From: Kineococcus radiotolerans SRS30216 = ATCC BAA-149
GTDB taxonomy: Bacteria; Actinomycetota; Actinomycetes; Actinomycetales; Kineococcaceae
Assembly: GCF_000017305.1 (NCBI RefSeq)
Contig: NC_009664.2
Coordinates: 4,200,001 to 4,232,000 of the forward strand
DNA: 32,000 bases
Direction of reading: 5' to 3'
This document shows, piece by piece, positions 8,638 through 32,000 of this stretch (positions within the stretch are counted from its first letter, which is position 1; each line of letters starts with the position of its first letter). Below the pieces are notes generated by a model that did no database searches, was not told where the DNA came from, and saw only the letters and a program-made list of their open reading frames with translations. The translations under genes and the position numbers were made by a program.

Positions 8638-9189
8638 TCAGGCGCGGCCGGTGTCCCACCCGACGGCGCGGACCACCGCCAGGGCCACCTCGGAGGGAGC
8701 CTGCCCCGCGGCCACCGCCACCTCGACGTCACCGCCCCCCGCGGCGTCCAGGACGGCGTCCAGTTCCCCGCTGCGGTGCAGGTGCCAGTCCAGGGCATCG
8801 CGGTCACCCCCGTGCCGCCGGCGCAGGCGGTCGTGGACGTGGGAGAGGTCCACGCGCAGACGGCACACCGTCAGCGGTGCACCGGCGGCCCGCTCGTACA
8901 GCGGCCGGTGCGCGGGGTCCTCGAGGACCCCGGCCAGGACGAGCCGGAGCGCTCCGGCGGCGAGGTGGTTGCGGGCCACCGCGTGCAGGTTGGCCAGCAC
9001 CAGGTGCTCGTGGAACGGGTCGTCCGGGGGGCTGGGCCAGGCGTCGCCCAGCGCGTCGAGGTCGACGACGGCGTGGGGGATCGCCTCCTCGCGCAGCAGC
9101 GCGGCGACGGCCTCGGCGGTGGTGGTCTTGCCCGACCCGACGGTGCCGGTGATCAGCAGGGCGGCCGGGGACGGCGTGGGGGTCCGCAC
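8638..9189 (-). CDS. P-loop NTPase / small-molecule-kinase-like ATPase
   Basis: Walker A LLITGTVGSGKTTTAEAV near the N-terminus. I chose the GTG start at 9189. The longer track ORF to 9390 adds an Arg/Ala-rich extension that would overlap the divergent GNAT gene. Confidence 0.7.
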   Translation of the reverse strand: MRTPTPSPAALLITGTVGSGKTTTAEAVAALLREEAIPHAVVDLDALGDAWPSPPDDPFHEHLVLANLHAVARNHLAAGALRLVLAGVLEDPAHRPLYERAAGAPLTVCRLRVDLSHVHDRLRRRHGGDRDALDWHLHRSGELDAVLDAAGGGDVEVAVAAGQAPSEVALAVVRAVGWDTGRA

Positions 9190-9301
9190 GGGCGTGACGG
9201 TACTGGCCCTCCGTCCACGACCGCCGGCTCGGCCGTCCCGAGCGGGGCGCACGACGCGGTGCGCGCGGACCGCCCGGCGGGTGGACTGGCACGCTGCTGC
9301 G

Positions 9302-9910
9302 GTGAGCGACATCGGGGGAGAGGCACCCGCACCGCTGGACACGCTGCCGTGGCCGGTGCGCACCGCCCGCCTGGGCATCCGGCGGGTCACCGCCGACGAC
9401 GAGGGCCGCCTGTGGGCCTACCGGCGGCTGAACGAGGTGAGCCGGTGGGGTTCGTGGCGCCCGGTCGACCGGGACGACTGGCGGGCGATCCTGACCGCGC
9501 GGCTCCGCGACCTGCTCGTCGTCGAGCTCGACGGCCGCGTCGTCGGGGACCTGATGGTGAGGGTGGAGGACGGTTGGGCTCAGCGCGAGGTGCGGGGCCG
9601 GGCCCGTGGCGTGCAGGCCGAGCTCGGGTGGGCGCTGGACCCGGCTGCCGCCGGCCGCGGGTACGCCACGGAGGCGGTGCGGGAGGTGCTGCGGCTGTGC
9701 TTCGAGGACCTGGGTCTGCGGCGGGTGACGGCCTACGCCTTCGCGGCCAACGAGGCGTCCTGCCGGCTGGCGGAGCGCGTCGGGATGCGCCGGGAGGTGC
9801 ACGCGGTCGCCGACTCCCTGCACCGGGACCTGGGGTGGATCGACGGGGTCGGGTACGCCCTGCTGGAGGAGGAGTGGCGCGCCGGCCGCGGCGCACGGAC
9901 GGAGTCCTGA
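9302..9910 (+). CDS. GNAT N-acetyltransferase (RimJ/RimL-like)
   Basis: LGIRRVTADDEGRLWAY...ELGWALDPAAAGRGYATEAVREVL...ANEASCRLAERVGMRRE. GTG start at 9302, in the frame of track ORF 7760-9910. Confidence 0.8.
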   Translation: MSDIGGEAPAPLDTLPWPVRTARLGIRRVTADDEGRLWAYRRLNEVSRWGSWRPVDRDDWRAILTARLRDLLVVELDGRVVGDLMVRVEDGWAQREVRGRARGVQAELGWALDPAAAGRGYATEAVREVLRLCFEDLGLRRVTAYAFAANEASCRLAERVGMRREVHAVADSLHRDLGWIDGVGYALLEEEWRAGRGARTES

Positions 9911-13628: not shown

Positions 13629-14672
13629 ATGACCGCCGTCCGGTCCCGTCGACCAGGAGGTTCCCGTGCCCGCTCCCACGTCCGGTCCGACGACGTGACG
13701 GTCGTCCCTCGTGCCGCCCGGTCGGGTGGTCCCGCCGCATCGAACCGCTGTACCCGGCGCCGTTTCCTGACCGGCGCCGCGACGTCGGCGGTCGCCGCCG
13801 GGCTCGCCGCCTGCAGCGACCGCACGTCCCCCGTCGGTGCCGCCCCCGGCTCGACGGGCGCCGGCGGCCGGGGGTCGCTGACCATCGGGGCCATCCCGGA
13901 CCAGGACCCGGAGGTCCTGCAGCGCCTGTACGCCGCCGTCGCCGACTCCGTGGCGCAGGCCACCGGCCTCGCCGTCACCTACCGCCCGGTCACCGACTAC
14001 GGCGCCGCGGTCTCCGCGTTCCGCACCGGGGACCTGGACCTCGTCTGGTTCGGCGGGCTCACCGGTGTGCAGGCCCGGTTGCAGGCACCGGGCGCCCGGG
14101 TCGTCGCCCAGCGCGACATCGACGAGGACTTCCACTCGGTCTTCGTCGTGAACACCGCCACCGGTCTGAGCGCCTCGGACGACCTGACCCCCCTCGCCGG
14201 GCTGCGGTTCACCTACGGCAGCCAGACCTCCACCTCGGGCGCGCTGATGCCCGCGTACTTCCTCGCCCAGCAGGGGGTCGACCCGCGAGGTTTCCCGGGG
14301 GGCCCGGGCCACAGCGGGTCCCACGACGCGACGCTGCAGCTGGTCGCCTCCGGCAGCTACCAGGCCGGGGTGCTCAACGAGCAGGTGTGGGCCTCCCGCA
14401 GCGAGGCCGGTGAGGTGGACCCGGCGGTGCGGCTGTACGCGCGCACCCCGGCCTACCACGACTACCACTGGGTGCTCGGCCCGCAGGCCGTGGACCGGCT
14501 GGGGGAGGAACTGCCGCAGCGGCTGAGCGACTACTTCCTCGCCCTCTCCCTCGACGACCCTGACGACCGGGCCGTCCTGGACCTGTTCGGCGCGCAGCGG
14601 TTCATCGCCACGCAGGCGTCCAACTACGACCAGATCGAGGACATCGGCAGGCAGCTGGGGTTGATCACCTGA
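13629..14672 (+). CDS. phnD: Phosphonate/phosphite ABC transporter substrate-binding protein (PhnD family), Tat/lipoprotein-type signal
   Basis: RRRFLTGAATSAVAAGLAACSD signal, then GAIPDQDPE...TDYGAAVSAFRTGDLDLVWFGG...YHDYHWV, typical of PhnD. The start is uncertain because the N-terminal extension is long. Confidence 0.85.
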   Translation: MTAVRSRRPGGSRARSHVRSDDVTVVPRAARSGGPAASNRCTRRRFLTGAATSAVAAGLAACSDRTSPVGAAPGSTGAGGRGSLTIGAIPDQDPEVLQRLYAAVADSVAQATGLAVTYRPVTDYGAAVSAFRTGDLDLVWFGGLTGVQARLQAPGARVVAQRDIDEDFHSVFVVNTATGLSASDDLTPLAGLRFTYGSQTSTSGALMPAYFLAQQGVDPRGFPGGPGHSGSHDATLQLVASGSYQAGVLNEQVWASRSEAGEVDPAVRLYARTPAYHDYHWVLGPQAVDRLGEELPQRLSDYFLALSLDDPDDRAVLDLFGAQRFIATQASNYDQIEDIGRQLGLIT

Positions 14673-14686
14673 ACGCCGCCGCGCGG

Positions 14687-15415
14687 TTGTCCGGGGTCGA
14701 GGTCCGCTACGGCGGCACCACGGCCCTGACCGGTCTGGACCTCACCGTCCGGGCCGGGGAACGGGTTGCCGTGGTGGGTCCCTCGGGGGCGGGGAAGTCC
14801 ACCCTGCTGCGCCTGCTCAACGGGTCGCTCACCCCGAGCGCGGGATCGGTCGAGGTCCTCGGCGTCGACCCGCGCACCCTCACCGGGCGCGACCAGCGGC
14901 GGCTGCGGGCGCGGGTCGGTACCGTCCACCAGCAGCTGGAACTCGTCGGGCCGCTGCGCGTGGTCCACAACGTCAACGCCGGCCGGCTCGCGGCCTGGCC
15001 GGTGTGGCGCGCGGCGTGGTCGCTGCTCAGACCGCAGGGGGTTCCCGAGGTGGCCGCGGCCCTGGCGCAGGTCGGCTTGTCGCAGCGGCTGTACGAACGC
15101 ACCGACCGCCTCTCCGGCGGGCAGCAGCAACGGGTGGCCCTGGCCCGGGTGCTGGTGCAGCGCCCGGACCTCGTGCTGGCCGACGAACCGGCCTCCGCGC
15201 TCGACCCCGCGCTGGCCGAGCGGGCGCTGACCCTGCTGAGCACCTCGGTCGCCGAACGCGGCGGCACCCTGCTCGCCTGCCTGCACGACCCCGCGCTCGC
15301 GCTGCGCCACTGCACCCGGGTGGTGGGCCTGGTCGAGGGTCGTCTCGTGCTCGACGCGCCCGCGGACGCGCTGGGCCCGGGCGACCTGGCCGAGTTCTAC
15401 GGGATGAGCCGGTGA
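14687..15415 (+). CDS. phnC: Phosphonate ABC transporter ATP-binding protein
   Basis: Walker A GPSGAGKST, signature LSGGQQQRVALARVL, Walker B LVLADEP. TTG start at 14687. Confidence 0.9.
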   Translation: MSGVEVRYGGTTALTGLDLTVRAGERVAVVGPSGAGKSTLLRLLNGSLTPSAGSVEVLGVDPRTLTGRDQRRLRARVGTVHQQLELVGPLRVVHNVNAGRLAAWPVWRAAWSLLRPQGVPEVAAALAQVGLSQRLYERTDRLSGGQQQRVALARVLVQRPDLVLADEPASALDPALAERALTLLSTSVAERGGTLLACLHDPALALRHCTRVVGLVEGRLVLDAPADALGPGDLAEFYGMSR

Positions 15416-17082
15416 GCGCCGCGGCGGGGCCGGCCGAGCCGCGGTTGCGCCGCTCGCGGGCCCGGTGGGCCTGGGCCGTCGGCGTCCTCCTCGTCGTGGG
15501 GTGGTCCCTGGCCGGGGCGGGGGCGTTCTCCGGGGAGGTGCTGAACCCGGCCGGGGTGCGGCAGTTCACCCGCTTCGCCGTCGGCGCGCTGCACCCGGAC
15601 CTGTCCGCGGACTTCCGCGGTGTGCTGGTGACGAGCACGCTGGTCACCGTCGCCTACGCCGCGCTGGGGGCGGCGCTGGCGGTGCTGGCCGGGGCGCTCG
15701 GCGCGCTCGCCCTGACCCGCACGACGTGGGGGCGCCGGCGGGCGGGCTGGGTGCTGGCCCGCGCGGTCGTCGCCGTCCCCCGCGGTCTGCACGAGGCGGT
15801 GTGGGGTCTGTTGCTGGTCAACGTCCTCGGCCTGAACCCCTGGGTGGGGGTCCTGGCCATCGCCGTCCCCTACGGCGCGGTCAGCGCGAAGGTGTTCGCC
15901 GACCTGCTCGACGAGGTGCCCCGCGGTGGGTACGAGGCGCTGCTGGCCGCCGGCGCCGGCCGCGGGGTCGCGGCGCTCTACGGGCTCCTGCCCCCGGCCG
16001 CCGGGGGACTGCTGGCGTACGCGTTCTACCGGCTGGAGTGCGCCGTGCGCTCGGCGGTGGTGCTGGGGCTCATCGGCGCCGGCGGGCTGGGGTACCAGCT
16101 CTCGCTGTCGTTCAGCTCGCTGCGCTGGGAGCAGGTCTGGAGCTGCGTCTACGCCCTGACCGCGCTCTGCGTCGCCGCCGTCGTCGCCGGTCGTGCGGTG
16201 CGCCGCCGCCTGAGCGACCCGCCGCCCGTGCGGGGGGACCGGCTGCGGCGCGACGCCGCGCTGACGTGGGCGGGGCTGGCCGCCCTCGCCCTCACCGCGT
16301 GGTCGTGGTGGTACCTGGCGGTCGACCCGGCCACCCTGGTCGACGTCCGGGCGCGGGAGCAGGTGTCCTACCTGGCCGGGCTGGCGTGGCCGGTCAGCAC
16401 CTCCGGTCCGCTGCTGCACGCGCTGGGCCGCGCCGCGGTCGACACGGTGCAGATGTCGGTCATCGCCATCGCCCTGGCCACCGCCGGTGCGGTGCTGCTG
16501 TCCGGGCTCGCCGTCCGCCCGGCCCACCGGCGCCACTCCACCCACCCGGGTCGCGCCCCGCGACGCCCCGGGGTGCGGCGGGCCGCCGTCGTCCTCGCCG
16601 GTGCGGTCGTGCGGGGTCTCGTGCGGGGCGCGCTGCTGCTCCTGCGCGCCGTGCCCCCGCCGGTGTGGGCCCTGGTCCTGCTGTTCGTGCTGCGCCCGGG
16701 GATCCTCCCGGGTGCTCTCGCCCTGGGGGTCTACACCCTCGGCGTCCTCGGCCGGCTGACCGCCGAGGCGCTGGAGGAACTCGACCCGCGACCGGCGCGG
16801 GCGCTGACGGTGCTCGGGGCGAGCGCGAGCGGGGTGTGGCTGTACGGGGTGGCGCCGCGCGCGGTGGGCCCCGTGTTCGCCTACGCGCTGTACCGGTGGG
16901 AGGTCGCGATCCGCGACACGGTGCTCGTCGGGTTGCTGGGCGCGGGCGGCCTCGGTGCGCTGCTCGCCACGTCGCTGCAGACGTTCGACTGGCCCGCCGT
17001 GGCCACGACCCTCGGGGTGCTGGTGCTGCTGACCCTCGCCGTCGACCTCGTCAGCGACCGGGCGCGGGAGGTGGTGCGCTGA
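15412..17082 (+). CDS. phnE: Phosphonate ABC transporter permease, fused tandem PhnE-PhnE
   Basis: GTGA overlap with phnC (15412-15415). Two permease halves each end in the PhnE-type motif (VLGLIGAGGLGYQL and VLVGLLGAGGLGALL). The track ORF 15004-17082 is this frame extended upstream. Confidence 0.85.
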   Translation: MSAAAGPAEPRLRRSRARWAWAVGVLLVVGWSLAGAGAFSGEVLNPAGVRQFTRFAVGALHPDLSADFRGVLVTSTLVTVAYAALGAALAVLAGALGALALTRTTWGRRRAGWVLARAVVAVPRGLHEAVWGLLLVNVLGLNPWVGVLAIAVPYGAVSAKVFADLLDEVPRGGYEALLAAGAGRGVAALYGLLPPAAGGLLAYAFYRLECAVRSAVVLGLIGAGGLGYQLSLSFSSLRWEQVWSCVYALTALCVAAVVAGRAVRRRLSDPPPVRGDRLRRDAALTWAGLAALALTAWSWWYLAVDPATLVDVRAREQVSYLAGLAWPVSTSGPLLHALGRAAVDTVQMSVIAIALATAGAVLLSGLAVRPAHRRHSTHPGRAPRRPGVRRAAVVLAGAVVRGLVRGALLLLRAVPPPVWALVLLFVLRPGILPGALALGVYTLGVLGRLTAEALEELDPRPARALTVLGASASGVWLYGVAPRAVGPVFAYALYRWEVAIRDTVLVGLLGAGGLGALLATSLQTFDWPAVATTLGVLVLLTLAVDLVSDRAREVVR

Positions 17083-17084
17083 CG

Positions 17085-17163
17085 GGCCGCGGGGACCGGC
17101 CCCGCGGCCGCCCCCCGGCCCGTCCGGTGCAGCGGCCCGGGCCCGCCGATCGCCGGGCCCGGG
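17085..17163. terminator. Two 10-bp GC hairpins in the convergent gap between phnE and the thioesterase gene
   Basis: GGCCGCGGGG-accgg-CCCCGCGGCC at 17085-17109 and CCCGGGCCCG-ccgatcgc-CGGGCCCGGG at 17136-17163. Neither has a T-tract. Confidence 0.5.
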
Positions 17164-17165
17164 TC

Positions 17166-17633
17166 TCACCAGCCGCGGAACCGCACCTGCTCGCCGAGGT
17201 GCGGGGTGAACTGGGCGCGTTCCTCCTCGGTCATCGGCTGCGGGCGACCGGAGCTGACGTCGACCAGGACCATGCGGCTGCGGGCGACCGCGGCCACGTC
17301 GGCCTCGTCGTCGTGCTGCGCGACCGCCTGGTAGGCGACGTCGACGCTGCTGGTGCCCAGCCGCGTCGCCCAGATGTCGATGGTGAGCCGGTGGCGGCCG
17401 TAGATCAGCGGGGAGCGGTACTCCACCTCGTGACGCACCGCCAGCATCGCCCGGGTGGACACCTGACCGCCGACCTCCACCCCCGCGGCGGGGAAGGCGC
17501 TGAAGCGGGCGTCCTCGAAGAAGCGCAGGAAGGCGGTGTTGTTCACGTGGCCGAAGGCGTCCATGTCCGACCAGCGCAGCGGGATGGGCACCGACACGGC
17601 GTGGCGGAGGCGGAGGTCGTCGACGTGGCTCAC
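17166..17633 (-). CDS. Acyl-CoA thioesterase (4HBT/YbgC-like hotdog fold)
   Basis: VPIPLRWSDMDAFGHVNNTAFLRFFEDAR is the typical 4HBT N-terminal motif. Confidence 0.8.
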   Translation of the reverse strand: MSHVDDLRLRHAVSVPIPLRWSDMDAFGHVNNTAFLRFFEDARFSAFPAAGVEVGGQVSTRAMLAVRHEVEYRSPLIYGRHRLTIDIWATRLGTSSVDVAYQAVAQHDDEADVAAVARSRMVLVDVSSGRPQPMTEEERAQFTPHLGEQVRFRGW

Positions 17634-17679
17634 GCGGGCAGTGTGCCCGACCCGGCGGACCCGTCGGTGGCGCGACCCC

Positions 17680-18600
17680 TCAGCCGCCGAGCACGGGGGT
17701 CCCGGCGGCGGGGGCGTTGGCCGACCCGGCGACGTAGCGGCCGTACGGCTCCCCGTAGATCCCCGGCCCGTCGACGTGCAGCTCGGCGAGGAAGGCGTCC
17801 GTGCGCTCGCGCGCGTCCTGCGACAGCACGGCGGTCTCCTCGAAGGAGGTCGGGTCGACGCGCCGGGGGCCCGGCGCGGGCAGGCACACGACGGGGACGT
17901 GAGCGGCCACGGCCGGCAGGGCGGCCATGAGCTGCGCGCGGAGCTGCACCTGCGCCACCCGGGCCAGGATGTTCCTGATGCTCGGGGGTCCGGGAACCAC
18001 GGGGGCCGGCACGGTCGCGTCGAGCACCACCAGCGAGCCGGCCCCGCGCGCGGCGGCGTGCCGCACCGGCACGTTCGCCACCACGCCGCCGTCCACGAGG
18101 TCCCTGCCGTCGACGTGCACGGAGGGGAAGACGCCGGGGATCGCCGCCGAGGCCAGCAGCGCCGGGACCAGCGGGCCGGAATCCAGCACGTGCTCGTCCC
18201 CGGTGGCCAGGTCCAGGGCCACGACCGCGAGCGGCGTCCCCAGGCCCTCGAAGGTGTCCGTGTCCAGGGTGCTCAGGACGAGGGCCTCGAGGGCCCTGGA
18301 GCTGACGGCGTGCGTGCGGGAACGGCTCAGCCGCAGCACGGCGCCGAGGAGGCTGCCGGGGAACACGCTGTCGCGGGTCAGGTCCTTCCACATCGACGCC
18401 AGCAGCGCGGGCCCGTCGTCGCCGTGGGCGGCGAGGACCGCCCCGTTCAGCGCCCCGACCGACGTCCCGGTGATCTGGTCGGGGACGACGCGGTGCTCGT
18501 GCAGGGCCGAGACCATGCCGACCTGGACGGCGCCGCGGCTCCCCCCTCCGCCCATCACGAAGCCCACCGGTCCCGGGAGGTGGATCCTCCGGCCCCTCAC
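17680..18600 (-). CDS. Patatin-like phospholipase
   Basis: Oxyanion motif GGGSRG, nucleophile elbow GTSVGALNG, and a C-terminal catalytic DGG (LVDGGV). Confidence 0.85.
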   Translation of the reverse strand: MRGRRIHLPGPVGFVMGGGGSRGAVQVGMVSALHEHRVVPDQITGTSVGALNGAVLAAHGDDGPALLASMWKDLTRDSVFPGSLLGAVLRLSRSRTHAVSSRALEALVLSTLDTDTFEGLGTPLAVVALDLATGDEHVLDSGPLVPALLASAAIPGVFPSVHVDGRDLVDGGVVANVPVRHAAARGAGSLVVLDATVPAPVVPGPPSIRNILARVAQVQLRAQLMAALPAVAAHVPVVCLPAPGPRRVDPTSFEETAVLSQDARERTDAFLAELHVDGPGIYGEPYGRYVAGSANAPAAGTPVLGG

Positions 18601-20922: not shown

Positions 20923-22566
20923 TCAGGCTCCTGGGGTCGGGGTGGGCAGGTGAGCGTGGTGGTCGCCGCGGGAGGGCGCGCGGTGCGGGTGCTGCAGGCG
21001 GGGGCGCCGGCCGGGGACCAGCAGGGCCAGCAGGGCGCCGGCGGCCGCGACGGCCGCGGCGGCGAGCATGGTGGTGCGCATGCCGGAGACGAAGGCCGTC
21101 TGGGTGGAGTGCGTGATCAGGTGGGCCAGGTCGGCGTCGGCGCCGGGAGGGACGGGGGCCACCCCGCCGGCCACCGCGGTGCTGCCCGCCCGGCCCAGCG
21201 CGGCGATCAGGTCGGCGGGCAGGGCGGAGTGCTCCAGCAGCCGGCTGAAGCGCTCGCCGGTGGCCGCGGCCATCACGCCGCCGAGGACGGCGACGCCCAG
21301 GGTGGCGCCGAGGCGACCGGCGGTCTGCTGGGCGCCGGCCGCGGCGCCGGCCAGTTCCACCGGGGCCCGTCCCACGGTGGTGTTGACGGTGGAGGTGACC
21401 AGCAGTCCCAGACCCAGGCCGATCAGGGCCAAGCCCGCACCCAGGGGTCGGTAGCCGCCGCCGACGGTGGCGGTCGAGGTGGCCACCAGGCCGGCGGCGA
21501 CCAGCAGGGAACCCGCCAGCAGGCTCCAGCGGTCCCCGACGGCGGCGATGAGGCGCCCGGAGAGCACCGCCCCCAGGAGCATGCCCGCTCCCAGCGGCAG
21601 CAGGCGCACGCCGACCCCCGCGGAGGGCACGTGCTGGATCTGCAGCCAGAACAGCGACACCACGAAGAGCCCGCCGTTGAGGGCGAAGAACGCCAGGACG
21701 CTCAGCAGCGAACCGGCGGTGAAGGAGCGGTCGCGGAACAGCGACAGCGGCAGCAGCGGGTCGCGGCTGCGCGCTTCCACGAGCACGAAGGCGGCCAGCG
21801 CCACCGCGGCCCCGACCAGCGGGACGGTGGTGGAGGCGGCGCCCCACCCGCGGGTGGGTGCGTCGATGAGGGCGTGGACCAGGGCGCTGAGGGCGAGGAC
21901 GAGCAGGAGGGTGCCCAGGACGTCGAAGCCGGCGCTGCGCCGCAGGCGCACCTCGCGCAGGGCCTGGGTCCCCAGCAGCAGGCAGACGAGGGCCACGGGG
22001 ACGTTCAGGTACATCGTCCAGCGCCAGCCGCCGGCCTCCACGACCGCTCCGCCGACGAGGGGACCGGCGGCGATCGAGAGTCCCTGCACGGAGTTGAAGA
22101 TCCCGATGGCGGCGGGCAGTCGCGGCTCGGGGACGCTGGCGCGCAGCAGCGAGAGGGCGTTGGTGGTGAGGAAACCGCCAAAGACCCCCTGGGCGGTGCG
22201 CAGGGCGATGACGAGGGGGACCGGCGTCGAGACCCCGATGAGCAGCGAGGTCAGGCCGAAACCGGCGATGCCGAGCAGGAAGGTGCGCTTGCGTCCGTAG
22301 CGGTCGCCGAGCTTCCCGGCCAGGACCAGCGAGGCGGTCAGCCCGAGCAGGTAGGCGGTGGTGATCCACTGCAGGTCGCCCAGTCCCACGTGCAGGTCGG
22401 CGGCGAGGTCGCCGCCGGCCACGGCCAGGATCGTGGTGGCCAGGCCGGGCATGAGGGCGCCGAGGGTGACGGCCAGGACCGCGGCGCGGGTCCCCCGGCG
22501 CGGAGTCGCGTGGCCGGGGGTCGCGTGGTCGGGAGTCGCGTGGTCGGGGGGCGGGGGGACGCTCAT
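20923..22566 (-). CDS. MFS transporter, DHA2/EmrB-like (about 14 TM segments)
   Basis: 547 aa with many hydrophobic segments. LAGKLGDRYGRKRTFL is MFS motif A-like. Divergent from the MarR gene. Confidence 0.9.
   Translation of the reverse strand: MSVPPPPDHATPDHATPGHATPRRGTRAAVLAVTLGALMPGLATTILAVAGGDLAADLHVGLGDLQWITTAYLLGLTASLVLAGKLGDRYGRKRTFLLGIAGFGLTSLLIGVSTPVPLVIALRTAQGVFGGFLTTNALSLLRASVPEPRLPAAIGIFNSVQGLSIAAGPLVGGAVVEAGGWRWTMYLNVPVALVCLLLGTQALREVRLRRSAGFDVLGTLLLVLALSALVHALIDAPTRGWGAASTTVPLVGAAVALAAFVLVEARSRDPLLPLSLFRDRSFTAGSLLSVLAFFALNGGLFVVSLFWLQIQHVPSAGVGVRLLPLGAGMLLGAVLSGRLIAAVGDRWSLLAGSLLVAAGLVATSTATVGGGYRPLGAGLALIGLGLGLLVTSTVNTTVGRAPVELAGAAAGAQQTAGRLGATLGVAVLGGVMAAATGERFSRLLEHSALPADLIAALGRAGSTAVAGGVAPVPPGADADLAHLITHSTQTAFVSGMRTTMLAAAAVAAAGALLALLVPGRRPRLQHPHRAPSRGDHHAHLPTPTPGA
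22505..22549 (-). repeat. In-frame 15-bp tandem repeat x3 in the MFS N-terminal tail
   Basis: gtcgcgtggccgggg / gtcgcgtggtcggga / gtcgcgtggtcgggg on the plus strand, encoding PDHATPDHATPGHATP on the minus strand. Confidence 0.8.
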
Positions 22567-26959: not shown

Positions 26960-27126
26960 GCACCGCGGAACCCGCGGGATCGATCGAGGGAACCGTGTCA
27001 AGCTCCGCCTGCGCCAAGCGCCGGCCCCGTGGTCGTGCCGCGGACGTCGTGTTGTCGTGCCGGTGCCCGCCCGGCCGCTCCGCACCCACGACGAGCCTGG
27101 TCGAACGGGGTGCAGGACCGCCGCTG

Positions 27127-27825
27127 CTACCGGCCCGCCCCGGTGCTGCTGCCCCCCGCTGACCTCGTCGGGGAACCACCGCGACGTGAACGCCCCGCCC
27201 ACCGGCGGCGCACCAGCAGCACCACCGCCACGGCCGCCGTCGTCAGCACCAGCCACCGCGCCAGCACCGCCTCCGGGTGCACCGGCTGCACCGGCGGGAC
27301 GTCGAAGCCCGGGGCCAGCACGATCACCTGCAACGCCGCCCCGGCCGGCACGACCAGCGCCGCCAGCAGCCCCACCCGGCCCGGCCGGCGCACCAGCGCC
27401 CCGACCGCGCCCAGGGGGCCGCACAGCAGCACGCTGGCGACCAGCCAGATCAGCAGTTCGTCCACGTACCGGGCGAAGGGCTCAGCACGCAGGATCGAGT
27501 CGCTGACGTAGTACGTCAGGACCGCGCCCCCCGCGGCCAGGGACCCCGCTGCCGCGCCGACCCCCACCGCCCCACGCGCTGGGGCGCCGCCCGACGGAAC
27601 TGCTCGGTCCGGTACCGCCGGCGCGGGGGTCGTGGCCATCCAGCCGGCCGCGACGGCCAGCGCCGCCCACGCCCAGCCCGCGTTGAGGAGGTAGCTGGCG
27701 AAGCGCGCCACCGACTGCACCACCGGCTCCTCGCCCGGTCCACCCGAGGCGTTGGCGGAGGAGTCCACTGCGCCGAAGGTCATCCCGATCAGGACGGCAG
27801 CCACCAGGCGTGGGCGGGTCCACAT
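27127..27825 (-). CDS. Integral membrane protein, function unknown
   Basis: 232 aa with several hydrophobic helices (LVAAVLIGMTFGAV, AGWAWAALAVAAGW, LLIWLVASVLLCGPLGAVGAL, VLARWLVLTTAAVAVVLLV). Confidence 0.6.
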   Translation of the reverse strand: MWTRPRLVAAVLIGMTFGAVDSSANASGGPGEEPVVQSVARFASYLLNAGWAWAALAVAAGWMATTPAPAVPDRAVPSGGAPARGAVGVGAAAGSLAAGGAVLTYYVSDSILRAEPFARYVDELLIWLVASVLLCGPLGAVGALVRRPGRVGLLAALVVPAGAALQVIVLAPGFDVPPVQPVHPEAVLARWLVLTTAAVAVVLLVRRRWAGRSRRGGSPTRSAGGSSTGAGR

Positions 27826-27982
27826 GCGATCACGCTACTGGGGCTCTCCTCGACTCGTGGTCGTTCCGCCGACTGTCGCCGAGGGACCCGCGCGGCTGGT
27901 GGTGGCGTCTGTGATGTCTCAGGACTTCGGTGACAGTCTCAGGTCTGAGCAGGTGCCGGCCGCCAACGACAGCGCGCACCAC

Positions 27983-28000
27983 GCGGGATGACCGGGCGTC
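27983..28000 (+). repeat. Array repeat copy 1 (cgcgggatgaccgggcgt)
   Basis: Matches the consensus CGCGGGATGACCGTGCGT. Preceded by gcgcgcacca, as in copy 6. Confidence 0.85.
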
Positions 28001-28156
28001 CGCTGGGCTGGGCTTAGGCACGGTGACACCGGGAATGCCGGTACCCAGCGACGGCTTGTAGAGGGTGGTTGATCCGCTGCATGTCCCCGGGCCTCACCTT
28101 CAGCCGCCTTGAGCGGCCTTCCGCCGAGAGGCGACTGCCGGATCGACCACTACGTC

Positions 28157-28188
28157 ACGGCCGCCGGGCTACTCAGCCCGGCGGCCGT
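28157..28188. terminator. Perfect 14-bp stem hairpin inside the ORF-less unit
   Basis: ACGGCCGCCGGGCT-actc-AGCCCGGCGGCCGT. Symmetrical, so it can fold on either strand. There is no T-tract. Confidence 0.5.
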
Positions 28189-28221
28189 TGTGCGTCCCGA
28201 GCGGGTCAGCGCCGCGCTGAA

Positions 28222-28239
28222 CGCGGGATGACCGCGCGT
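28222..28239 (+). repeat. Array repeat copy 2 (cgcgggatgaccgcgcgt)
   Basis: Matches the consensus. A partial inverted partner GGTCATCC lies at 28273-28280. Confidence 0.85.
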
Positions 28240-28310
28240 CTGACCATGCGCCGTGGTCCTCCGATCACTCGGGGTCATCCATAAGCTGATCGCACCGCCA
28301 CCAACGGAGG

Positions 28311-28571
28311 ATGGAGCTCGTGGTCCCGTCGGGCAGGGTCGATCGCATGACGCAGCGACGCACCCCGCAGCAGACGGCACCCTGGACGCAGAAGCCCGCG
28401 ACGTGGATCGCCTTGGCGGTGGCCTTCCTGGCGCTCTCGACACCGCTGTGGATCGATGCCCTCAGCGGAGAGAAGACGCTCGGCTACCTGCCGGCTGCGG
28501 CCTTCACCGCGGCGGCTGCCTGCTTCGTGGTGCAGGCCCGCCGCAGCGCCCGGCGGCGGCTGGAGCGCTGA
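28311..28571 (+). CDS. Small membrane protein with two predicted TM helices
   Basis: ATWIALAVAFLALSTPLWI and LPAAAFTAAAACFVV hydrophobic segments with a basic C-terminus. GGAGG at 28306-28310 favours the in-frame GTG at 28320. ATG 28347 is also possible. Confidence 0.5.
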   Translation: MELVVPSGRVDRMTQRRTPQQTAPWTQKPATWIALAVAFLALSTPLWIDALSGEKTLGYLPAAAFTAAAACFVVQARRSARRRLER

Positions 28572-28658
28572 GCTGTTGGTGCGGCCACCGGACCCGCGAC
28601 GTGTGGCGCGTAGACGCCCCGGACTGCTGGCCAGAGGGTGGGCCCTCACCACGCAGAT

Positions 28659-28676
28659 CGCGGGATGACCGTGCGT
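28659..28676 (+). repeat. Array repeat copy 3 (cgcgggatgaccgtgcgt)
   Basis: Exact consensus, followed by the hairpin GTTCCC-cgcgtc-GGGAAC. Confidence 0.85.
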
Positions 28677-28723
28677 TCCCCGCGTCGGGAACGGATGCTC
28701 CGGCTGCTGGGGCTGCCGCTGCC

Positions 28724-29335
28724 TCAGCGCCGCTGCGCTGCCTCCTCCTCCTGCGGAGTCAGCAGCCACCGCGCGAAGCAGCCGCCATCCACTTCGGTGT
28801 ACCAGCGAGCGGTGACCTGGAAGGTGGTGGCCGGCGCCACGGGTAGCCGTAGCCCGGCCGGAGCGTGGGCTGCTTCGGCACCGGTGACCGGGTGCGGCTT
28901 CAGCGTGGGGAACGGGCCTGGCGCCGAGTCGATGATCGGGCCGCTGTGCTCCCCGGTCCCGTCCAGCGCGGCGTTGTAGAGCACCAGCTCTCCGGTGCAG
29001 ACGGTGAAAGTGCCCCCGGACTCGTCGTCGTCATCGAGGGGATGCTCCAGAGCGGCCTGCAGCACCGCCCCGTAGTCCTCGCCGGAGGCCTGCACGATGC
29101 GGATGTGCTGCTGGTCGCAGAAGACCTCCAGCCAGCTCTCGTCGTTGACGGCGCCGTCGGGGGCGATGAGCCCGGCGCTGCCTTCTCCCACGGGGGTGCT
29201 CGTCACGCTCTGGCCCAGGTCGCAGAGGGGCTCGTAGTGGTCGTGGCTGAACCCGGCCCAGGAGGCCAGGTGGGGGGCGTCGAGGGCGAGGTAGATCTCG
29301 CCGTCGCTCCAGAGGCGACCCACGTGCGTCCACAT
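28724..29335 (-). CDS. Putative polymorphic-toxin immunity protein (Imm21-like), 203 aa
   Basis: ATG 29335 is preceded by AAGGGAG. The pattern MWTHVGRLWSDGEIYLALDAPHLASWAGF...YEPLCDL...GSAGLIAPDG...IRIVQASGEDYGAVLQAAL...GELVLYNAALDG...FQVTARWYTEVDGGCFARWLL resembles my recollection of Imm21-family proteins. The family assignment alone has confidence of about 0.35. Confidence 0.65.
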   Translation of the reverse strand: MWTHVGRLWSDGEIYLALDAPHLASWAGFSHDHYEPLCDLGQSVTSTPVGEGSAGLIAPDGAVNDESWLEVFCDQQHIRIVQASGEDYGAVLQAALEHPLDDDDESGGTFTVCTGELVLYNAALDGTGEHSGPIIDSAPGPFPTLKPHPVTGAEAAHAPAGLRLPVAPATTFQVTARWYTEVDGGCFARWLLTPQEEEAAQRR

Positions 29336-29506
29336 CGGCTTCGCTCCCTTCGTCGAGGTGCTAGTCGCACCGGCTGCTGCGAACCCAGCCGCCACCCCAG
29401 CACGGCAGCCGGTGTTTGCATGATCTCGCACCTTGATCGACGTGAGGGCGCATGCGCGACCGGCGGTAAGACAACAAGGGGCGGCCACTCGTGATCACAC
29501 CCGGAG

Positions 29507-29524
29507 CGCGGGATGACCGTGAAG
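29507..29524 (+). repeat. Array repeat copy 4 (cgcgggatgaccgtgaag)
   Basis: Core CGCGGGATGACCGTG is conserved. An imperfect hairpin CGGGATGAC-cgtgaa-GTCGTCCCG overlaps it. Confidence 0.85.
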
Positions 29525-29562
29525 TCGTCCCGTCGGCGGCTCCCGCTCGCGATGATCGTTGG

Positions 29563-31044
29563 ATGCGGACGCTGCGACCGAATCGGATGATCGTCGCCTC
29601 CTCAGGGGTGTGGGTGCTGGATGAGCGGCAACCGGTGGCGGCGGTCCTCGATCCCGATACCGGGGCTGTGCGCCGACTGGTGTCGTGGGCGCAGTTGCCC
29701 CCGCCATCTGCGGGGGAGGACGTGGTGGTTTGCGCCGATGAGGACGGGTTGTGGGTCCAGCACTCCCGCCGCGGTCCGCTGGTGCGGGTGGACCTGGACG
29801 GGGTCGCTACCGCGGTGTGGACCCAGGGCCTGGTCCTGGCCGCCGCCGGTCCCGGGGGTGCGTGGTGCACCTCCCCGCCCCCGGCGCAGGAGCTGGTGCG
29901 CGGGGGTGAAGCTGAGCCAGTCATCTTCGCCGGCGGCGCGGCTCTGGCCCGGGTGGAGCGCGACGGCACGGTGCGGAAGGTGTTCACCGACGCACCCGTC
30001 AGTGCGCTGGCCACCACCGATGAGGCGTTGTGGGTGCAGCTGGACGTCGAGCCGGCGGCGCTGCGCGAGCTGGGCGCAGACACCTACGAGGGGACCTGGT
30101 CCAGCCGTTGGGTGCCGCTGCCCTGGACCGGTGATCTTCCGCAGCGGATCGAGGCGGTGGGCGGGCTGCCGCAGCCACCGTCGACTGCGGTTGCCGTCCG
30201 CCCGGGTGGGGTGGGGCGCTGGTCCGGCTACCTCTACGACCCCGACGTCGATGCGGACAGCGAGGAGGTGGTGGAGGCGGCTGGATCGTCGTGGCGGATG
30301 GGATGGCAGCCCGAAGCAGTGGATGTGCAGGACGAGTCAGAGGGTCGCCGCCCTGGCCGGGTCGTCGCCGCGGCCTTCGCGGTGCCGGATCCCCTGGGGG
30401 TGCCGGATCCGCGGGTGGAGGGGTTCAGTACCGAACCGGTACGGGTCTTCCAACTCGGCAGCTATGGGATCAGTGCCGCGGCCGGGGTGGGTGAGCACCT
30501 GGTGGTGGTGACCGGCGGGCCGCCGCCCTCGCTGGAGCCCACCCGGGACGGGTCAACGGCGGGTGGGTCGGAGGCGGAGAGGCGTGCAGGACCGCGGGAT
30601 CGGCCCACACCGTGTGTCGTGGCGCTGCATCCCGGTACCAGTGAGCTGCGGCTGTGGTTGAGCGGGGACGAGGTCGACATCAGCGACCTGTGCTGGCCGC
30701 TGGTGCCCCGGCCGTTGGACGCGGACTCCTACGCCCAGCAGGTGCTGACGTCGTGGAGCCGGATGGACCGCTACTGGCAGGGTCCCGATGGCTGGCACCC
30801 GTTGACGAGCGGGGTCAGCGGCAGCCGGGCGCGGCTGATCGGGGATTGGCCGGCGACGCGGGTGGAATTCACCTTCGACTACGCGCCCCGTCCAGGGGTG
30901 CGGGTGCGGCGCTTCATCGCCTTGTTCGACGAGTTGGGAGCCATCGAGTACCCCGAGTACGCCGACGTCGGTCTGATGGAGGACCTCGACACCGAACGGG
31001 TGCCGCCGTTGACGGACGCCCGTGACGGCTTTCTCGACATGTGA
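29563..31044 (+). CDS. Hypothetical protein (493 aa), no family recognised
   Basis: Long ORF with a non-repetitive, acidic, Trp-rich translation (GVWVLDE, DGLWVQH, EALWVQLD, C-terminal RFIALFDELGAIEYPEYADVGLMEDLD). Start at ATG 29563 or ATG 29587. Confidence 0.7.
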   Translation: MRTLRPNRMIVASSGVWVLDERQPVAAVLDPDTGAVRRLVSWAQLPPPSAGEDVVVCADEDGLWVQHSRRGPLVRVDLDGVATAVWTQGLVLAAAGPGGAWCTSPPPAQELVRGGEAEPVIFAGGAALARVERDGTVRKVFTDAPVSALATTDEALWVQLDVEPAALRELGADTYEGTWSSRWVPLPWTGDLPQRIEAVGGLPQPPSTAVAVRPGGVGRWSGYLYDPDVDADSEEVVEAAGSSWRMGWQPEAVDVQDESEGRRPGRVVAAAFAVPDPLGVPDPRVEGFSTEPVRVFQLGSYGISAAAGVGEHLVVVTGGPPPSLEPTRDGSTAGGSEAERRAGPRDRPTPCVVALHPGTSELRLWLSGDEVDISDLCWPLVPRPLDADSYAQQVLTSWSRMDRYWQGPDGWHPLTSGVSGSRARLIGDWPATRVEFTFDYAPRPGVRVRRFIALFDELGAIEYPEYADVGLMEDLDTERVPPLTDARDGFLDM

Positions 31045-31080
31045 GGCGCTACGGCTTGGAAGATTGGAGACCGCACGGAC

Positions 31081-31098
31081 GGCGGGATGACCGTGAAA
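31081..31098 (+). repeat. Array repeat copy 5 (ggcgggatgaccgtgaaa)
   Basis: Core CGGGATGACCGTGAA is shared with copy 4. The flanking CACGG/CCGTG can pair around it. Confidence 0.8.
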
Positions 31099-31123
31099 GT
31101 GACGTGCCGCCTCAGCAACCGCC

Positions 31124-31675
31124 GTGCACGATGGGCCGGTGCCGCAGCCTCTGCTCGTCCCCGTGATCACCGGTGAGTCCGTCACGTTGCGCCCCTTCGA
31201 GGCCAGCGACGTCGGCGCGGTGCTCGAGGCGACGACGGATCCATTGATCCCCTTGATCACCAGCGTCCCGGACACCGCGGACAGCAAGCTTGCTGCCGCG
31301 TTCGTGGGGCGTCAGCACGAGCGGGCGGTGACGGGCGTGGGCTACTCGTTCGCGGTGGAGTCCGGGTCGGTGTGCGTCGGGCAGATTGGCCTGTGGCTGC
31401 GCGATCTGGACTAGGGACGGGCCACGATCGGCTACTGGATCCGGCCCAGCAGTCGCCGGCGGGGCCACGCCGCGCAGGCTTTGGGCGCTTTGACGCAGTG
31501 GGCGTGGAGACTGCCGGAGGTGCACCGCCTTCAGCTCTACATCGAGCCGAGCAACGTCGGGTCGTGGCGTACCGCCGAGCGGGCGGGGTACGTCCGAGAG
31601 GGGCTGCTGCGTTCGTGGGAGGTCGTGGGGAACGAGCGTCGGGACATGTTCATGTACGGGATGGCGCGGCAGTAG
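31124..31675 (+). pseudogene. RimJ/RimL-like GNAT acetyltransferase interrupted by an in-frame TAG at 31412-31414
   Basis: Track ORFs 31124-31414 and 31481-31675 are in the same frame. Reading through the TAG gives ...LWLRDLD*GRATIGYWIRPSSRRRGHAAQAL...YIEPSNVGSWRTAERAGYVREG, one continuous GNAT fold whose acetyl-CoA motif (RRRGHA) lies after the stop. Confidence 0.75.
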
Positions 31676-31743
31676 CGAGCTGACCGCGGCCCTGCTGCAG
31701 TGGACTTCGTGCCTTGCATTGGCATCGGGGACCGCGCGCACAA

Positions 31744-31761
31744 CGCGGGATGACTGTGCGG
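31744..31761 (+). repeat. Array repeat copy 6 (cgcgggatgactgtgcgg)
   Basis: Preceded by gcgcgcacaa. The flanking CGCAC/GTGCG can pair. A degenerate half-copy ggcgggatggcgtc follows at about 31764-31777. Confidence 0.8.
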
Positions 31762-31844
31762 TCGGCGGGATGGCGTCTCACTCCTCGGCGCGCAGCGGGG
31801 CTGAATCGCCTGCGCAGGGGCGATGGTCGTGCCACGGTGAGCGG

Positions 31845-32000
31845 ATGAGCGCCGCGTCCGGTCACCCGTCGTCTCGTCCCGACCTCCTGCTGTTGGCCCT
31901 GGTGGGCCTGCCGGTGGTGGGGGCGGTGCTGACGCTGGCGGTGCAGCTGTACCTGGCGACCTGGGGTGGCGTCGACGTCGACGTGGTCTGGGTGCTGAGC
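31845..32000 (+). CDS. Membrane protein, 5' part only; continues beyond the window
   Basis: ATG 31845 opens MSAASGHPSSRPDLLLLALVGLPVVGAVLTLAVQLYLATWGG..., which stays open to the window end. The hydrophobic segment suggests a TM helix. Confidence 0.4.
   Translation, partial: MSAASGHPSSRPDLLLLALVGLPVVGAVLTLAVQLYLATWGGVDVDVVWVLS

What the first reader, a model, noticed from the sequence alone, without database searches (positions are those of the whole stretch)
27826..32000. Repeat-punctuated single-gene cassette array in a lower-GC island (top candidate for an undescribed system)
Six same-orientation copies of an 18-nt motif, consensus CGCGGGATGACCGTGCGT, lie at 27983, 28222, 28659, 29507, 31081 and 31744. 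I found no full-length copy elsewhere in the 32 kb; only the shorter partial matches reported separately turned up. The GGGATGAC core is invariant, and several copies share upstream GCGCAC(C/A)A. Every copy is intergenic, so the repeats partition the region into one-gene units. The units are a 240-bp ORF-less unit with a perfect 14-bp hairpin, an 86-aa 2-TM protein, an inverted Imm21-like protein, a 493-aa unknown protein, a GNAT with an amber codon, and a membrane protein cut off by the window end. The DNA is visibly more A/T-rich than the flanks (for example ataagctgat, gaagattggaga, gccttgcattggcatc). Short flanking bases can pair around the core, and the pairing changes between copies in a compensatory way: CGCAC/GTGCG in copy 6, CGCGC/GCGCG in copy 2, ACGCA/TGCGT in copy 3 and CACGG/CCGTG in copy 5. 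This hints at a stem-loop presenting CGCGGGATGA. The architecture recalls integron cassette arrays, Xer/dif modules and the recombinase-associated orphan-immunity arrays described in Bacteroidales. The motif, however, has no attC core sites (RYYYAAC/GTTRRRY) and no dif-like 11-6-11 layout, and integron-like arrays are not a recognised feature of Actinobacteria. It could be a new site-specific cassette-capture system, or a shared regulatory or translational leader for accessory and immunity genes.
Basis: partly seen in the sequence, partly recalled or inferred. Interest (0 to 1): 0.85.

Follow-up and report, generated by a model that had tools for sequence, protein, structure and literature searches.

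The report
Recombination-site gene cassette array, Kineococcus
The end of this Kineococcus window is a row of single-gene units separated by same-direction copies of one ~29-base recombination-type site; comparison with other Kineococcus genomes suggests an integron-like gene-cassette system that I could not find described for Actinobacteria.

Summary
Six same-strand sites lie at 27983, 28223, 28660, 29508, 31082 and 31745. A matrix trained only on other genomes scores them 27.5-40.3 bits, against a shuffle maximum of 8.7. All are intergenic, in DNA of 70-72% GC beside 75-81% flanks.

The organism is a Kineococcus. Arrays with up to 28 co-oriented sites per ~20 kb occur in at least eight other Kineococcus genomes and in soil metagenomes. 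I counted about 129 sites, none on the opposite strand within an array.

Homologous units in different species end exactly at the site core. Each site arm travels with its own neighbouring unit. Unit order differs between species, and eight shared unit families always keep their orientation relative to the sites.

The site is defined by sequence: CGCGCACAAC-GCGGGAT-GACCGTGARGTCG. It has a Xer/dif-style layout and no conserved hairpin. In other genomes a 2.55-kb transposon encoding two Xer-like tyrosine recombinases sits inside these sites and shares the core.

Best reading (0.6): mobile gene cassettes exchanged by site-specific recombination. It works like an integron but is not one. The recombinase link and actual mobility are inferred.

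The parts
27973..28001 (+). Site 1 (core GCGGGATGACCGGG at 27983); first site of the array
   Evidence: 28.9 bits with a matrix trained on other genomes
27909..27982 (+). Extended left part of site 1. It is a degenerate copy of the ~50-80-nt module found left of about a third of sites, which resembles a miniature of the recombinase transposon's ends
   Evidence: 81% identical to L049 3405-3320; aligned with 27 other extended sites
28002..28212 (+). Unit 1: ORF-less remnant with a perfect 14-bp hairpin at 28157-28188
   Evidence: Hairpin; fold z-score -3.5; the hairpin plus site 2 (28158-28234) is 84% identical to L001 2-78
28213..28241 (+). Site 2 (core at 28223)
   Evidence: 27.5 bits
28311..28571 (+). 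Unit 2 gene: 86-aa protein, apparently with two membrane helices; no family assigned
   Evidence: ORF with third-position GC 0.89; only a sub-threshold YiaAB hit
28650..28678 (+). Site 3 (core at 28660; exact consensus)
   Evidence: 40.3 bits
28724..29338 (-). Unit 3 gene: 204-aa protein on the opposite strand. Homologues occur in Micromonospora and Dactylosporangium. The predicted fold is confident and has no PDB neighbour
   Evidence: pLDDT 87.6; best Foldseek TM-score about 0.15; Imm21 hit in only 2 of 17 homologues at E~0.01
29498..29526 (+). Site 4 (core at 29508)
   Evidence: 36.3 bits; homology with L001 begins exactly at base 29508
29563..31044 (+). Unit 4 gene: 493-aa protein of a Kineococcus-only family (485 aa if it starts at 29587)
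   Evidence: 24 homologues; every hit that carries an organism name is Kineococcus, the others are unnamed metagenome proteins; no Pfam domain
31072..31100 (+). Site 5 (core at 31082)
   Evidence: 33.3 bits; homology with L001 ends at 31093, inside the core
31124..31675 (+). Unit 5: GNAT acetyltransferase interrupted by an in-frame TAG at 31412-31414 (probable pseudogene)
   Evidence: Acetyltransf_3 positions 2-75 before the TAG and 81-137 after it
31735..31763 (+). Site 6 (core at 31745)
   Evidence: 36.4 bits
31770..32000 (+). Unit 6: start of a hydrophobic protein, cut off by the window end
   Evidence: Translation; no Pfam hit
27127..27825 (-). Left flank: 232-aa membrane protein. Its homologues in K. 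vitellinus and K. rhizosphaerae are themselves site-bounded units, in the opposite orientation relative to the sites
   Evidence: 45-47% identity to L018 4500-5087 and L124 8664-9383, both flanked by sites

Best explanation
Proposal. Region 27983-32000 is the start of a chromosomal array of mobile gene cassettes. Each cassette is one gene (sometimes none, sometimes several). It is bounded by directly repeated, sequence-defined recombination sites of about 29 bp. The site has a left arm CGCGCACAAC, an asymmetric 7-nt centre GCGGGAT and a right arm GACCGTGARGTCG.

Mechanism. A circular cassette carrying one site recombines with a site in the array by conservative site-specific recombination, with the crossover in the centre. 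After integration the left arm stays with the cassette on its left and the right arm with the cassette on its right. Every event adds one more site in the same direction. The reverse reaction excises a cassette.

Likely catalysts. The best candidates are a pair of Xer-like tyrosine recombinases. They are carried by a 2.55-kb transposon that inserts into these same sites in other Kineococcus genomes and whose ends resemble the site arms. The host XerC/XerD pair is the fallback candidate. Cassettes lie in both orientations, so each must use its own promoter.

Shown: the arrays; the breakpoints at the core; each arm travelling with its own cassette; shuffled order with fixed orientation; insertion of the recombinase element in the sites.

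Inferred: that recombinases cut these sites, that cassettes circularise, and which enzyme acts. No recombinase lies in this window.
For: 1. Arrays. Counting matrix hits of at least 15 bits, all on one strand per locus:
- window 6; L001 (Kineococcus sp. SYSU DK001) 14; L002 (sp. NBC_00420) 19; L126 (same genome, 400 kb away) 28; L018 (K. vitellinus) 9.
- L111 4; L124 6; L129 7; L027 3; L049 3; metagenome contigs 25.
- Nearly every gap between genes in L002 and L126 holds one site, with genes on both strands.
- Of 120 hits in the all-genome scan, only Kineococcus loci carry a run of three or more same-strand sites.

2. Breakpoints.
- Window 29508-31093 equals L001 9922-11543 at 84.6%. The match starts at the first core base and ends 11 nt into the next core, and the flanks are unrelated.
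- L003 11424-11932 equals L018 2110-2618 at 86.6%, ending within 7-12 nt of sites on both sides in both genomes.
- Across four genomes the right arm upstream of the 493-aa gene, and the left arm downstream of it, stay with that gene while the other arm of each site changes.

3. Shuffling with fixed polarity. Eight gene families are shared between arrays at different relative positions. All keep their orientation relative to the sites.

4. Recombinase link.
- L126 9911-12464 equals L002 2525-5090 at 97.8%. The element encodes two tyrosine recombinases with intact R/HxxRH/Y motifs. The nearest solved structures are XerA/XerC-like, IntI4 and XerD.
- It has 15-bp terminal inverted repeats. Its junctions read gcgcgcacc-GCGATGA|TATGTGGG and CCCACATA|A-GCGGGATGACCGTG.
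- A relic right end without recombinase genes lies at L126 5361-5423.
- Short copies of just the element's ends sit in sites at L126 3232, L126 14081 and L001 9838.
- NBC_00420 carries at least six recombinase copies.

5. Size and composition. The median distance between sites is 638 bp, and 99 of 123 intervals are 200-2000 bp. GC is 0.70-0.72 against 0.75-0.81 in the flanks.
Against: - No recombinase lies in the 32-kb window or in the 21.5-kb L001 array.
- Close relatives (above 70% identity) of the element's recombinase were seen only in NBC_00420, R86509, K. arenarius, sp. G2, one Terrabacter and some metagenomes. They were not seen in SYSU DK001, K. vitellinus, K. rubinsiae or K. rhizosphaerae, which all have sites.
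- The recombinase family is very large at 65-71% identity among the hits listed; the few of these that carry organism names are other Actinobacteria. Distant members insert at ordinary places, for example splitting a GntR gene in L131. The element may therefore merely target the sites.
- In L129 the element abuts an array of the opposite polarity.
- Ten intervals are 'empty' tandem sites only 26-35 nt apart. Simple integration and excision do not predict these.
- All evidence is comparative. No excised circles or strain-level polymorphisms were seen.
Confidence: 0.6

Rival explanations
1. The site is a non-autonomous intergenic repeat of the MITE or solo-end type, derived from the tyrosine-recombinase transposon. 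It has spread through accessory islands. The units are ordinary island genes that happen to be separated by the repeat. Rearrangements between species come from ordinary gene flux, or from homologous recombination between repeat copies, not from dedicated cassette mobility.
For: - The site's core and right arm resemble the outer part of the transposon's right end. Distant family members carry a related tip...CACATAATGCCGATGAGCGGA.
- Short copies of the element's ends do exist inside arrays.
- Tandem empty sites 26-35 nt apart occur.
- Lone sites occur in K. rhizosphaerae at L124 19551 and 20730, and possibly at window 13710.
- One genome holds at least two arrays 400 kb apart.
Against: - About 129 sites show no opposite-strand copy within any array. 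Inserting repeats usually land in both orientations.
- The two arms of a site travel with different neighbours rather than with each other. That requires exchange inside a 7-14-bp core, too short for efficient homologous recombination.
- Homology blocks end at the core on both sides.
- There are no sites in the 27.8 kb of ordinary genes next to the array apart from one weak relic.
Confidence: 0.27
2. The same cassette architecture, but driven by the host chromosome-dimer resolvases XerC/XerD acting on dif-like sites, as proposed for the pdif modules of Acinetobacter plasmids. On this view the transposon is only a passenger that exploits the sites.
For: - The layout is arm, 7-nt centre, arm, about 29 bp in all, like the 28-bp dif site. 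That length also matches the period of tandem sites.
- The left arm GCGCACAAC resembles the XerC arm GGTGCGCATAA of E. coli dif (this resemblance is from my own knowledge).
- Arrays exist in genomes where the transposon was not detected.
- K. radiotolerans encodes XerC and XerD (Krad_3139, Krad_1691; PMC2587704).
Against:
- The transposon's own ends mimic the site arms and share its centre, which points to its own recombinases.
- Known Xer-dependent modules are flanked by inverted sites, not direct ones (from my own knowledge).
Confidence: 0.1
3. The motif is a shared regulatory element for accessory genes: an operator, a promoter, a translational leader or a structured RNA.
For: - In the window five of six sites lie 40-100 nt upstream of + strand ORFs.
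- The core contains ATGA, a stop/start overlap (read directly from the sequence).
Against: - In L002 most unit genes are on the strand opposite to the sites. In L126 the split is about 14 to 11. Yet the sites never flip.
- There is no Rfam match at either threshold.
- The consensus fold of 28 extended sites is -3.4 kcal/mol, with three invariant pairs and no covariation.
- There are no promoter-like or terminator-like sites.
Confidence: 0.03

Closest known systems
Integrons (IntI integrase, attI, attC-bounded cassette arrays; sedentary chromosomal integrons)
   Same: Long arrays of mostly single-gene units of about 0.2-2 kb, separated by co-oriented recombination sites. The crossover lies inside the site, so each cassette carries parts of two sites. 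Cargo varies widely between species and includes GNATs, phosphotransferases, glyoxalase-type, NUDIX and many unknown proteins. The island has atypical GC. The enzymes belong to the tyrosine-recombinase superfamily.
   Different: - The sites are defined by primary sequence (~29 bp), not by a folded 57-141-nt attC hairpin.
- There is no RYYYAAC/GTTRRRY core.
- No IntI-type integrase was found. The candidate recombinases score 84 bits on TIGR02249 against a cut-off of 265.
- There is no fixed integrase/attI/Pc platform.
- Cassettes lie in both orientations.
- The candidate recombinases come as a pair on a multi-copy transposon.
- The host phylum had no complete integrons in the survey of Cury et al. 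2016 (PMC4889954).
pdif modules and other Xer-exploiting elements (Acinetobacter pdif modules; IMEX such as CTX/TLC tandem arrays at dif)
   Same: A short arm-centre-arm site of about 28-29 bp. The recombinases are Xer-like. Modules carry accessory genes. Repeated integration at one site produces tandem arrays with duplicated sites.
   Different: - pdif modules are bounded by inversely oriented sites. Here all sites are direct.
- IMEX arrays hold a few phage-sized elements at the single chromosomal dif. They are not dozens of single-gene units at several loci.
- Dependence on host XerC/D is untested here.
Tandem tyrosine-recombinase transposons (Tn554 and its actinobacterial relatives; RIT trios; strand-biased circularising elements with IntA/IntB)
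   Same: The 2.55-kb element in L002 and L126 has two adjacent, overlapping tyrosine-recombinase genes. It is multi-copy, crosses genera, and inserts at a specific sequence.
   Different: - The actinobacterial Tn554-like elements described by Van Houdt et al. 2012 (PMC3414803) pair a ~350-aa recombinase with a 611-828-aa one. Here the pair is 379-383 aa plus 428 aa, with no TnpC.
- From my own knowledge, Tn554 itself has no terminal inverted repeats, whereas this element has 15-bp ones.
- None of these families is reported with arrays of passenger cassettes bounded by its target site.
REP/BIME elements and MITEs
   Same: A short, genus-specific, strictly intergenic repeat in many copies. Miniature derivatives of the transposon's ends are present.
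   Different: - There is no palindromic hairpin.
- Orientation is uniform within arrays.
- Sites are clustered one per gene gap rather than dispersed.
- Homology breakpoints fall inside the repeat.
- No RAYT-type gene was seen.

Membership tests
Integron | IntI-type integrase (tyrosine recombinase with the integron-specific insertion) next to the array | tested here: not met
   No recombinase in the 32-kb window. The recombinases in related arrays score 84 and 34 bits on TIGR02249, against a cut-off of 265.
Integron | attC sites: imperfect palindromes defined by structure, with R/L boxes (RYYYAAC ... GTTRRRY) | tested here: not met
   The sites are conserved in sequence. The consensus fold is -3.4 kcal/mol with no covarying pair. 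The proposed stem is no better than shifted controls. No such boxes appear in the 85-site profile.
Integron | Promoterless cassettes co-oriented behind attI and the Pc promoter | tested here: not met
   Genes lie on both strands within arrays: L002 about 13 on - and 6 on +, L126 about 14 on + and 11 on -. In the window one of five units is inverted.
Integron | Array of small units separated by co-oriented recombination sites, with cargo variable between relatives | tested here: met
Xer/dif-type site modules (pdif-like) | A ~28-bp site made of two recombinase-binding arms around a 6-8-bp centre | tested here: inconclusive
   The conserved block spans -10 to +18, reading 10 + 7 + 12 nt. Tandem sites repeat every 26-35 nt. 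Binding was not tested, and the Kineococcus dif was not available.
Xer/dif-type site modules (pdif-like) | Modules flanked by inversely oriented sites | tested here: not met
   All sites within an array are on one strand.
Tn554-related tandem tyrosine-recombinase transposons | Two adjacent tyrosine-recombinase genes, one abnormally long (611-828 aa), often with tnpC | tested here: not met
   Two adjacent genes are present, of 379-383 and 428 aa, with no third conserved gene inside the 2,566-bp element. The family description comes from PMC3414803. The element is not in this window.
REP/BIME (RAYT-associated) repeats | Palindromic units forming hairpins, found in both orientations and dispersed genome-wide | tested here: not met
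   No conserved structure and a single orientation per array. There are no sites in 27.8 kb of adjacent ordinary genes apart from one weak relic. The genome-wide census is incomplete.
CRISPR array | 28-37-bp repeats separated by 26-72-bp spacers, with cas genes nearby | tested here: not met
   The median spacing is 638 bp and the intervals contain genes. No cas domains appear in any gene table.
tRNA- or gene-3'-end att repeats of tandem genomic islands | The repeat derives from a tRNA or a target gene's 3' end, with an integrase in each island | tested here: not met
   No tRNA or tmRNA in the window or in nine related loci. The units are 0.2-2 kb and carry no integrase.

The most novel reading that the evidence does not exclude
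Kineococcus carries an independently evolved counterpart of the integron. It is a gene-capture system in which dozens of single-gene cassettes, each with its own promoter, are stockpiled at several chromosomal loci between ~29-bp double-strand, sequence-defined sites. A mobile module encoding two Xer-like tyrosine recombinases shuffles them in trans, and that module is itself a cassette-like insert in the arrays.
Probability: 0.45. Interest if true: 0.9.

Novelty: new variant of a known kind. Interest (0 to 1): 0.8.

Why it matters
Integrons are the textbook device for stockpiling and shuffling gene cassettes. A survey of bacterial genomes found no complete integron in Actinobacteria (PMC4889954).

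A second route to the same architecture would show that cassette platforms evolved more than once. This route differs in three ways: simple double-strand Xer-style sites, a transposon-borne recombinase pair, and cassettes that express themselves.

It would also give a defined 29-bp site and two small recombinases that can be tested directly. And it would open a reservoir of soil-actinomycete accessory genes that current integron finders cannot see, including acetyltransferases, phosphotransferases, hydrolases and many unknowns.

Tried and rejected
- Rfam at gathering and permissive thresholds found nothing relevant.
- The promoter and terminator scan of 27000-32000 found none.
- The tRNA search in the window and nine loci found none, so the repeat is not a tRNA-derived att.
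- I could not extend the contig. The exact-protein look-ups for the 204-aa and 493-aa products found no record, so the window's genome is not in the assembly collection. The plasmid collection gave no match.
It could not give per-genome counts.
- The viral collection gave 11 single hits and no arrays.
- In the metagenome scan, the low-GC single hits lack the left arm and look like coding sequence, so I discounted them.
- I considered reading the motif as coding, as a C-terminal ...HNAG* or as an N-terminal MTVK leader. I dropped this because the frames are inconsistent between copies.
- Imm21 identity of the 204-aa protein: Pfam finds nothing for the window protein. Two of 17 homologues hit at E~0.01. 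The confident model has no PDB neighbour.
- A first all-against-all tblastx run timed out. I replaced it with ORF-based blastp.

Full report
**1.

The sixth copy, at 31081, keeps the invariant GGGATGAC. That 8-mer occurs six times on the + strand between 27985 and 31754, against 0.97 expected for the whole window.

A weight matrix built only from sites in other genomes scores the six sites 27.5-40.3 bits. Block-shuffled versions of the window never exceed 8.7 bits. Only one other position stands out, a weak 15.3-bit hit at 13710 on the - strand.

All six sites are intergenic. The region has 70-72% GC against 75-81% upstream.
- an ORF-less stretch with a perfect 14-bp hairpin at 28157-28188;
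- an 86-aa protein;
- an inverted 204-aa protein;
- a 493-aa protein;
- a GNAT gene broken by TAG at 31412;
- a truncated hydrophobic protein.

**2. It is a genus-wide architecture**

The 493-aa protein belongs to a family in which every hit that carries an organism name is Kineococcus; the rest are unnamed metagenome proteins. The contigs that encode its homologues show the same motif many times, always on one strand:
- 14 sites in 21.5 kb of Kineococcus sp. SYSU DK001 (L001);
- 19 sites in sp. NBC_00420 (L002);
- a variant motif, cgcgcgaccaGCGGCATGAGCGYG, in K. rubinsiae (L003).

A second locus of NBC_00420, 400 kb from the first, has 28 sites in 19 kb (L126). Runs also occur in K. vitellinus (9 sites), sp. 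SYSU DK005, K. indalonis and K. rhizosphaerae, and in soil metagenome contigs.

Among 120 hits of an all-genome scan, only Kineococcus loci carry a run of three or more same-strand sites; 114 hits are single chance matches in unrelated taxa. Kineococcus sp. TRM81007 has a homologue of the 493-aa gene but no sites.

In total about 129 sites were counted, with none on the opposite strand inside an array. The genes between sites lie on either strand. In L126, 27 of 28 sites are intergenic, and essentially every gap between genes holds one.

**3. Anatomy of the site**

Stacking 60-85 sites shows a conserved block from -10 to +18 around the core: CGCGCACAAC GCGGGAT GACCGTG(A/C)(G/A)GTC. Nothing beyond that block is conserved in most copies.

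Ten intervals are tandem 'empty' sites only 26-35 nt apart, which sets the full site at about 29 bp. That is an arm, an asymmetric 7-nt centre and a second arm, the layout of Xer/dif-type sites.

About a third of sites carry an extra 50-80 nt on the left (alignment A2). The extension has no conserved secondary structure.

**4. Evidence that the units move as cassettes**

- *Breakpoints.* Window 29508-31093 aligns with L001 9922-11543 at 84.6%. The alignment starts at the first base of one core and ends 11 nt into the next. The sequences outside are unrelated. A 509-bp unit shared by K. rubinsiae and K. vitellinus (86.6%) ends within 7-12 nt of sites at both ends in both genomes.
- *Arms follow their own cassette.* In four genomes the right arm upstream of the 493-aa gene (GAAGTC type) and the left arm downstream of it (gaccgcgc...) stay with that gene. 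The partner arms change with the neighbouring units. Exchange therefore happens inside the 7-14-bp core.
- *Order is shuffled.* A ~200-aa gene lies 9 kb upstream of the 493-aa gene in L001, 5 kb upstream in L003 and 2.5 kb downstream in L002.
- *Polarity is fixed.* Eight gene families shared between arrays always keep their orientation relative to the sites.
- *Size.* The median interval is 638 bp, and 99 of 123 intervals are 200-2000 bp.

**5. A recombinase connection, found outside the window**

Both NBC_00420 arrays contain a 2,566-bp element, 97.8% identical between the two loci. It encodes two overlapping tyrosine recombinases of 379-383 and 428 aa. Both are Xer-like by NCBIfam but below the cut-offs. 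Both keep the R, HxxRH and Y motifs. The nearest solved structures are XerA/XerC-like, IntI4 and XerD.

The element has perfect 15-bp terminal inverted repeats, TATGTGGGTGATCGG and CCGATCACCCACATA. It sits inside a site. The left junction is gcgcgcacc-GCGATGA|TATGTGGG. The right junction is CCCACATA|A-GCGGGATGACCGTG. Its inner repeat CACCCACATAA resembles the site's left arm CGCGCACAAC.

Further traces of the element occur in arrays:
- a relic right end without recombinase genes at L126 5361-5423;
- short copies of just the two ends at L126 3232, L126 14081 and L001 9838, which explain the 'extended' sites.

NBC_00420 has at least six recombinase copies. Relatives at 85% identity or more occur in three more Kineococcus species (sp. 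R86509, K. arenarius, sp. G2), a Terrabacter and a Propionibacteriaceae genome bin.

More distant relatives (70% identity) behave as ordinary transposons, one of them splitting a GntR gene. They end in a related tip, GATGAGCGG, which recalls the K. rubinsiae variant of the site.

**6. What it is not**

- It is not a known RNA and not a conserved structure.
- It is not a promoter or terminator.
- It is not a regulatory leader, because polarity ignores gene direction.
- It is not tRNA-derived.
- It is not CRISPR, because of the spacing and the genes between repeats.
- It is not an integron by membership. There is no IntI, no attC structure or boxes, and no common cassette orientation.

**7. Mechanism proposed, and its status**

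Circular cassettes with one site integrate at an array site by conservative recombination within GCGGGAT. Each event adds a unit and a co-oriented site. Excision is the reverse reaction.

The transposon's recombinase pair is the leading candidate enzyme, and host XerC/XerD the alternative. Expression must come from each cassette's own promoter.

The shown steps are architecture, breakpoints, arm segregation, shuffling with fixed polarity, and site-specific insertion of the recombinase element. The inferred steps are catalysis at these sites, circular intermediates and the identity of the enzyme.

The main rival (0.27) is that the site is a solo-end or MITE-like repeat of the transposon that has colonised island intergenic regions. 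The strict polarity and the recombinant arm combinations argue against it.

**8. Caveats**

- There is no recombinase in this window or in L001.
- The element was not detected in several array-bearing species.
- One element abuts an array of opposite polarity.
- The tandem empty sites are unexplained.
- The per-genome census is missing.
- The contig could not be extended past 32000.

**9. Literature**

Six full-text searches found no description of such arrays in Kineococcus or other Actinobacteria. The K. radiotolerans genome paper does not mention repeats. Cury et al. found no complete integron in Actinobacteria. Van Houdt et al. described actinobacterial Tn554-related tandem recombinase transposons, which differ in protein sizes. 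Subscription-only literature was not searchable.

Noticed in passing
window 13697-13710 (- strand): A weak solo site-like sequence, ggcggcacGAGGGACGACCGTCacgtcgtcgg, scores 15.3 bits against a shuffle maximum of 8.7. It lies upstream of the Tat-signal part of a phosphonate-binding protein gene, 14 kb from the array. It may be a relic site.
   Followed up: partly
window 8641-9202 (- strand ORF 8638-9390): This gene, outside the array, is 83% identical in DNA to a site-bounded unit gene of Kineococcus sp. NBC_00420 (L002 6910-7473, an AAA_33/zeta-toxin-like kinase). That is higher than the 73-77% seen for the shared 493-aa unit between the same two genomes.
   Followed up: no
L126 9911-12464 and L002 2525-5090: A compact 2,566-bp transposon with two overlapping Xer-like tyrosine-recombinase genes and perfect 15-bp terminal inverted repeats. 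One genome holds at least six copies. Relatives at 85% identity or more occur in a Terrabacter genome and a Propionibacteriaceae genome bin, implying transfer between genera.
   Followed up: partly
L126 9863/9892; L002 22/50 and 5669/5698/5725; L003 7247/7275/7303; L129; L145: Tandem 'empty' sites repeat every 26-35 nt with nothing between them. A simple integration-excision model does not explain them.
   Followed up: partly
window 28724-29338 (- strand): The 204-aa unit protein has its nearest named relatives in Micromonospora and Dactylosporangium (42-49% identity). Its predicted fold is confident (pLDDT 87.6) with no PDB neighbour (best TM-score about 0.15). Imm21 is hit by only 2 of 17 homologues, at E~0.01.
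   Followed up: yes
window 27127-27825 versus L018 4500-5087 and L124 8664-9383: The membrane-protein gene flanking the array has homologues that are themselves site-bounded units in two other species. Those homologues lie in the opposite orientation relative to the sites. In K. vitellinus a short stretch similar to the window's S41 peptidase gene lies just beyond a site (L018 7237-7425).
   Followed up: partly
window 31412-31414: An in-frame TAG splits an otherwise complete GNAT (Acetyltransf_3) gene. It is probably a decaying cassette gene.
   Followed up: partly
window 15000-17500 and 21000-22500: AT skew is extreme: -0.32 to -0.42 around an 821-aa ORF with no Pfam hit (15465-17930), and +0.34 over the MFS transporter gene on the - strand.
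   Followed up: no
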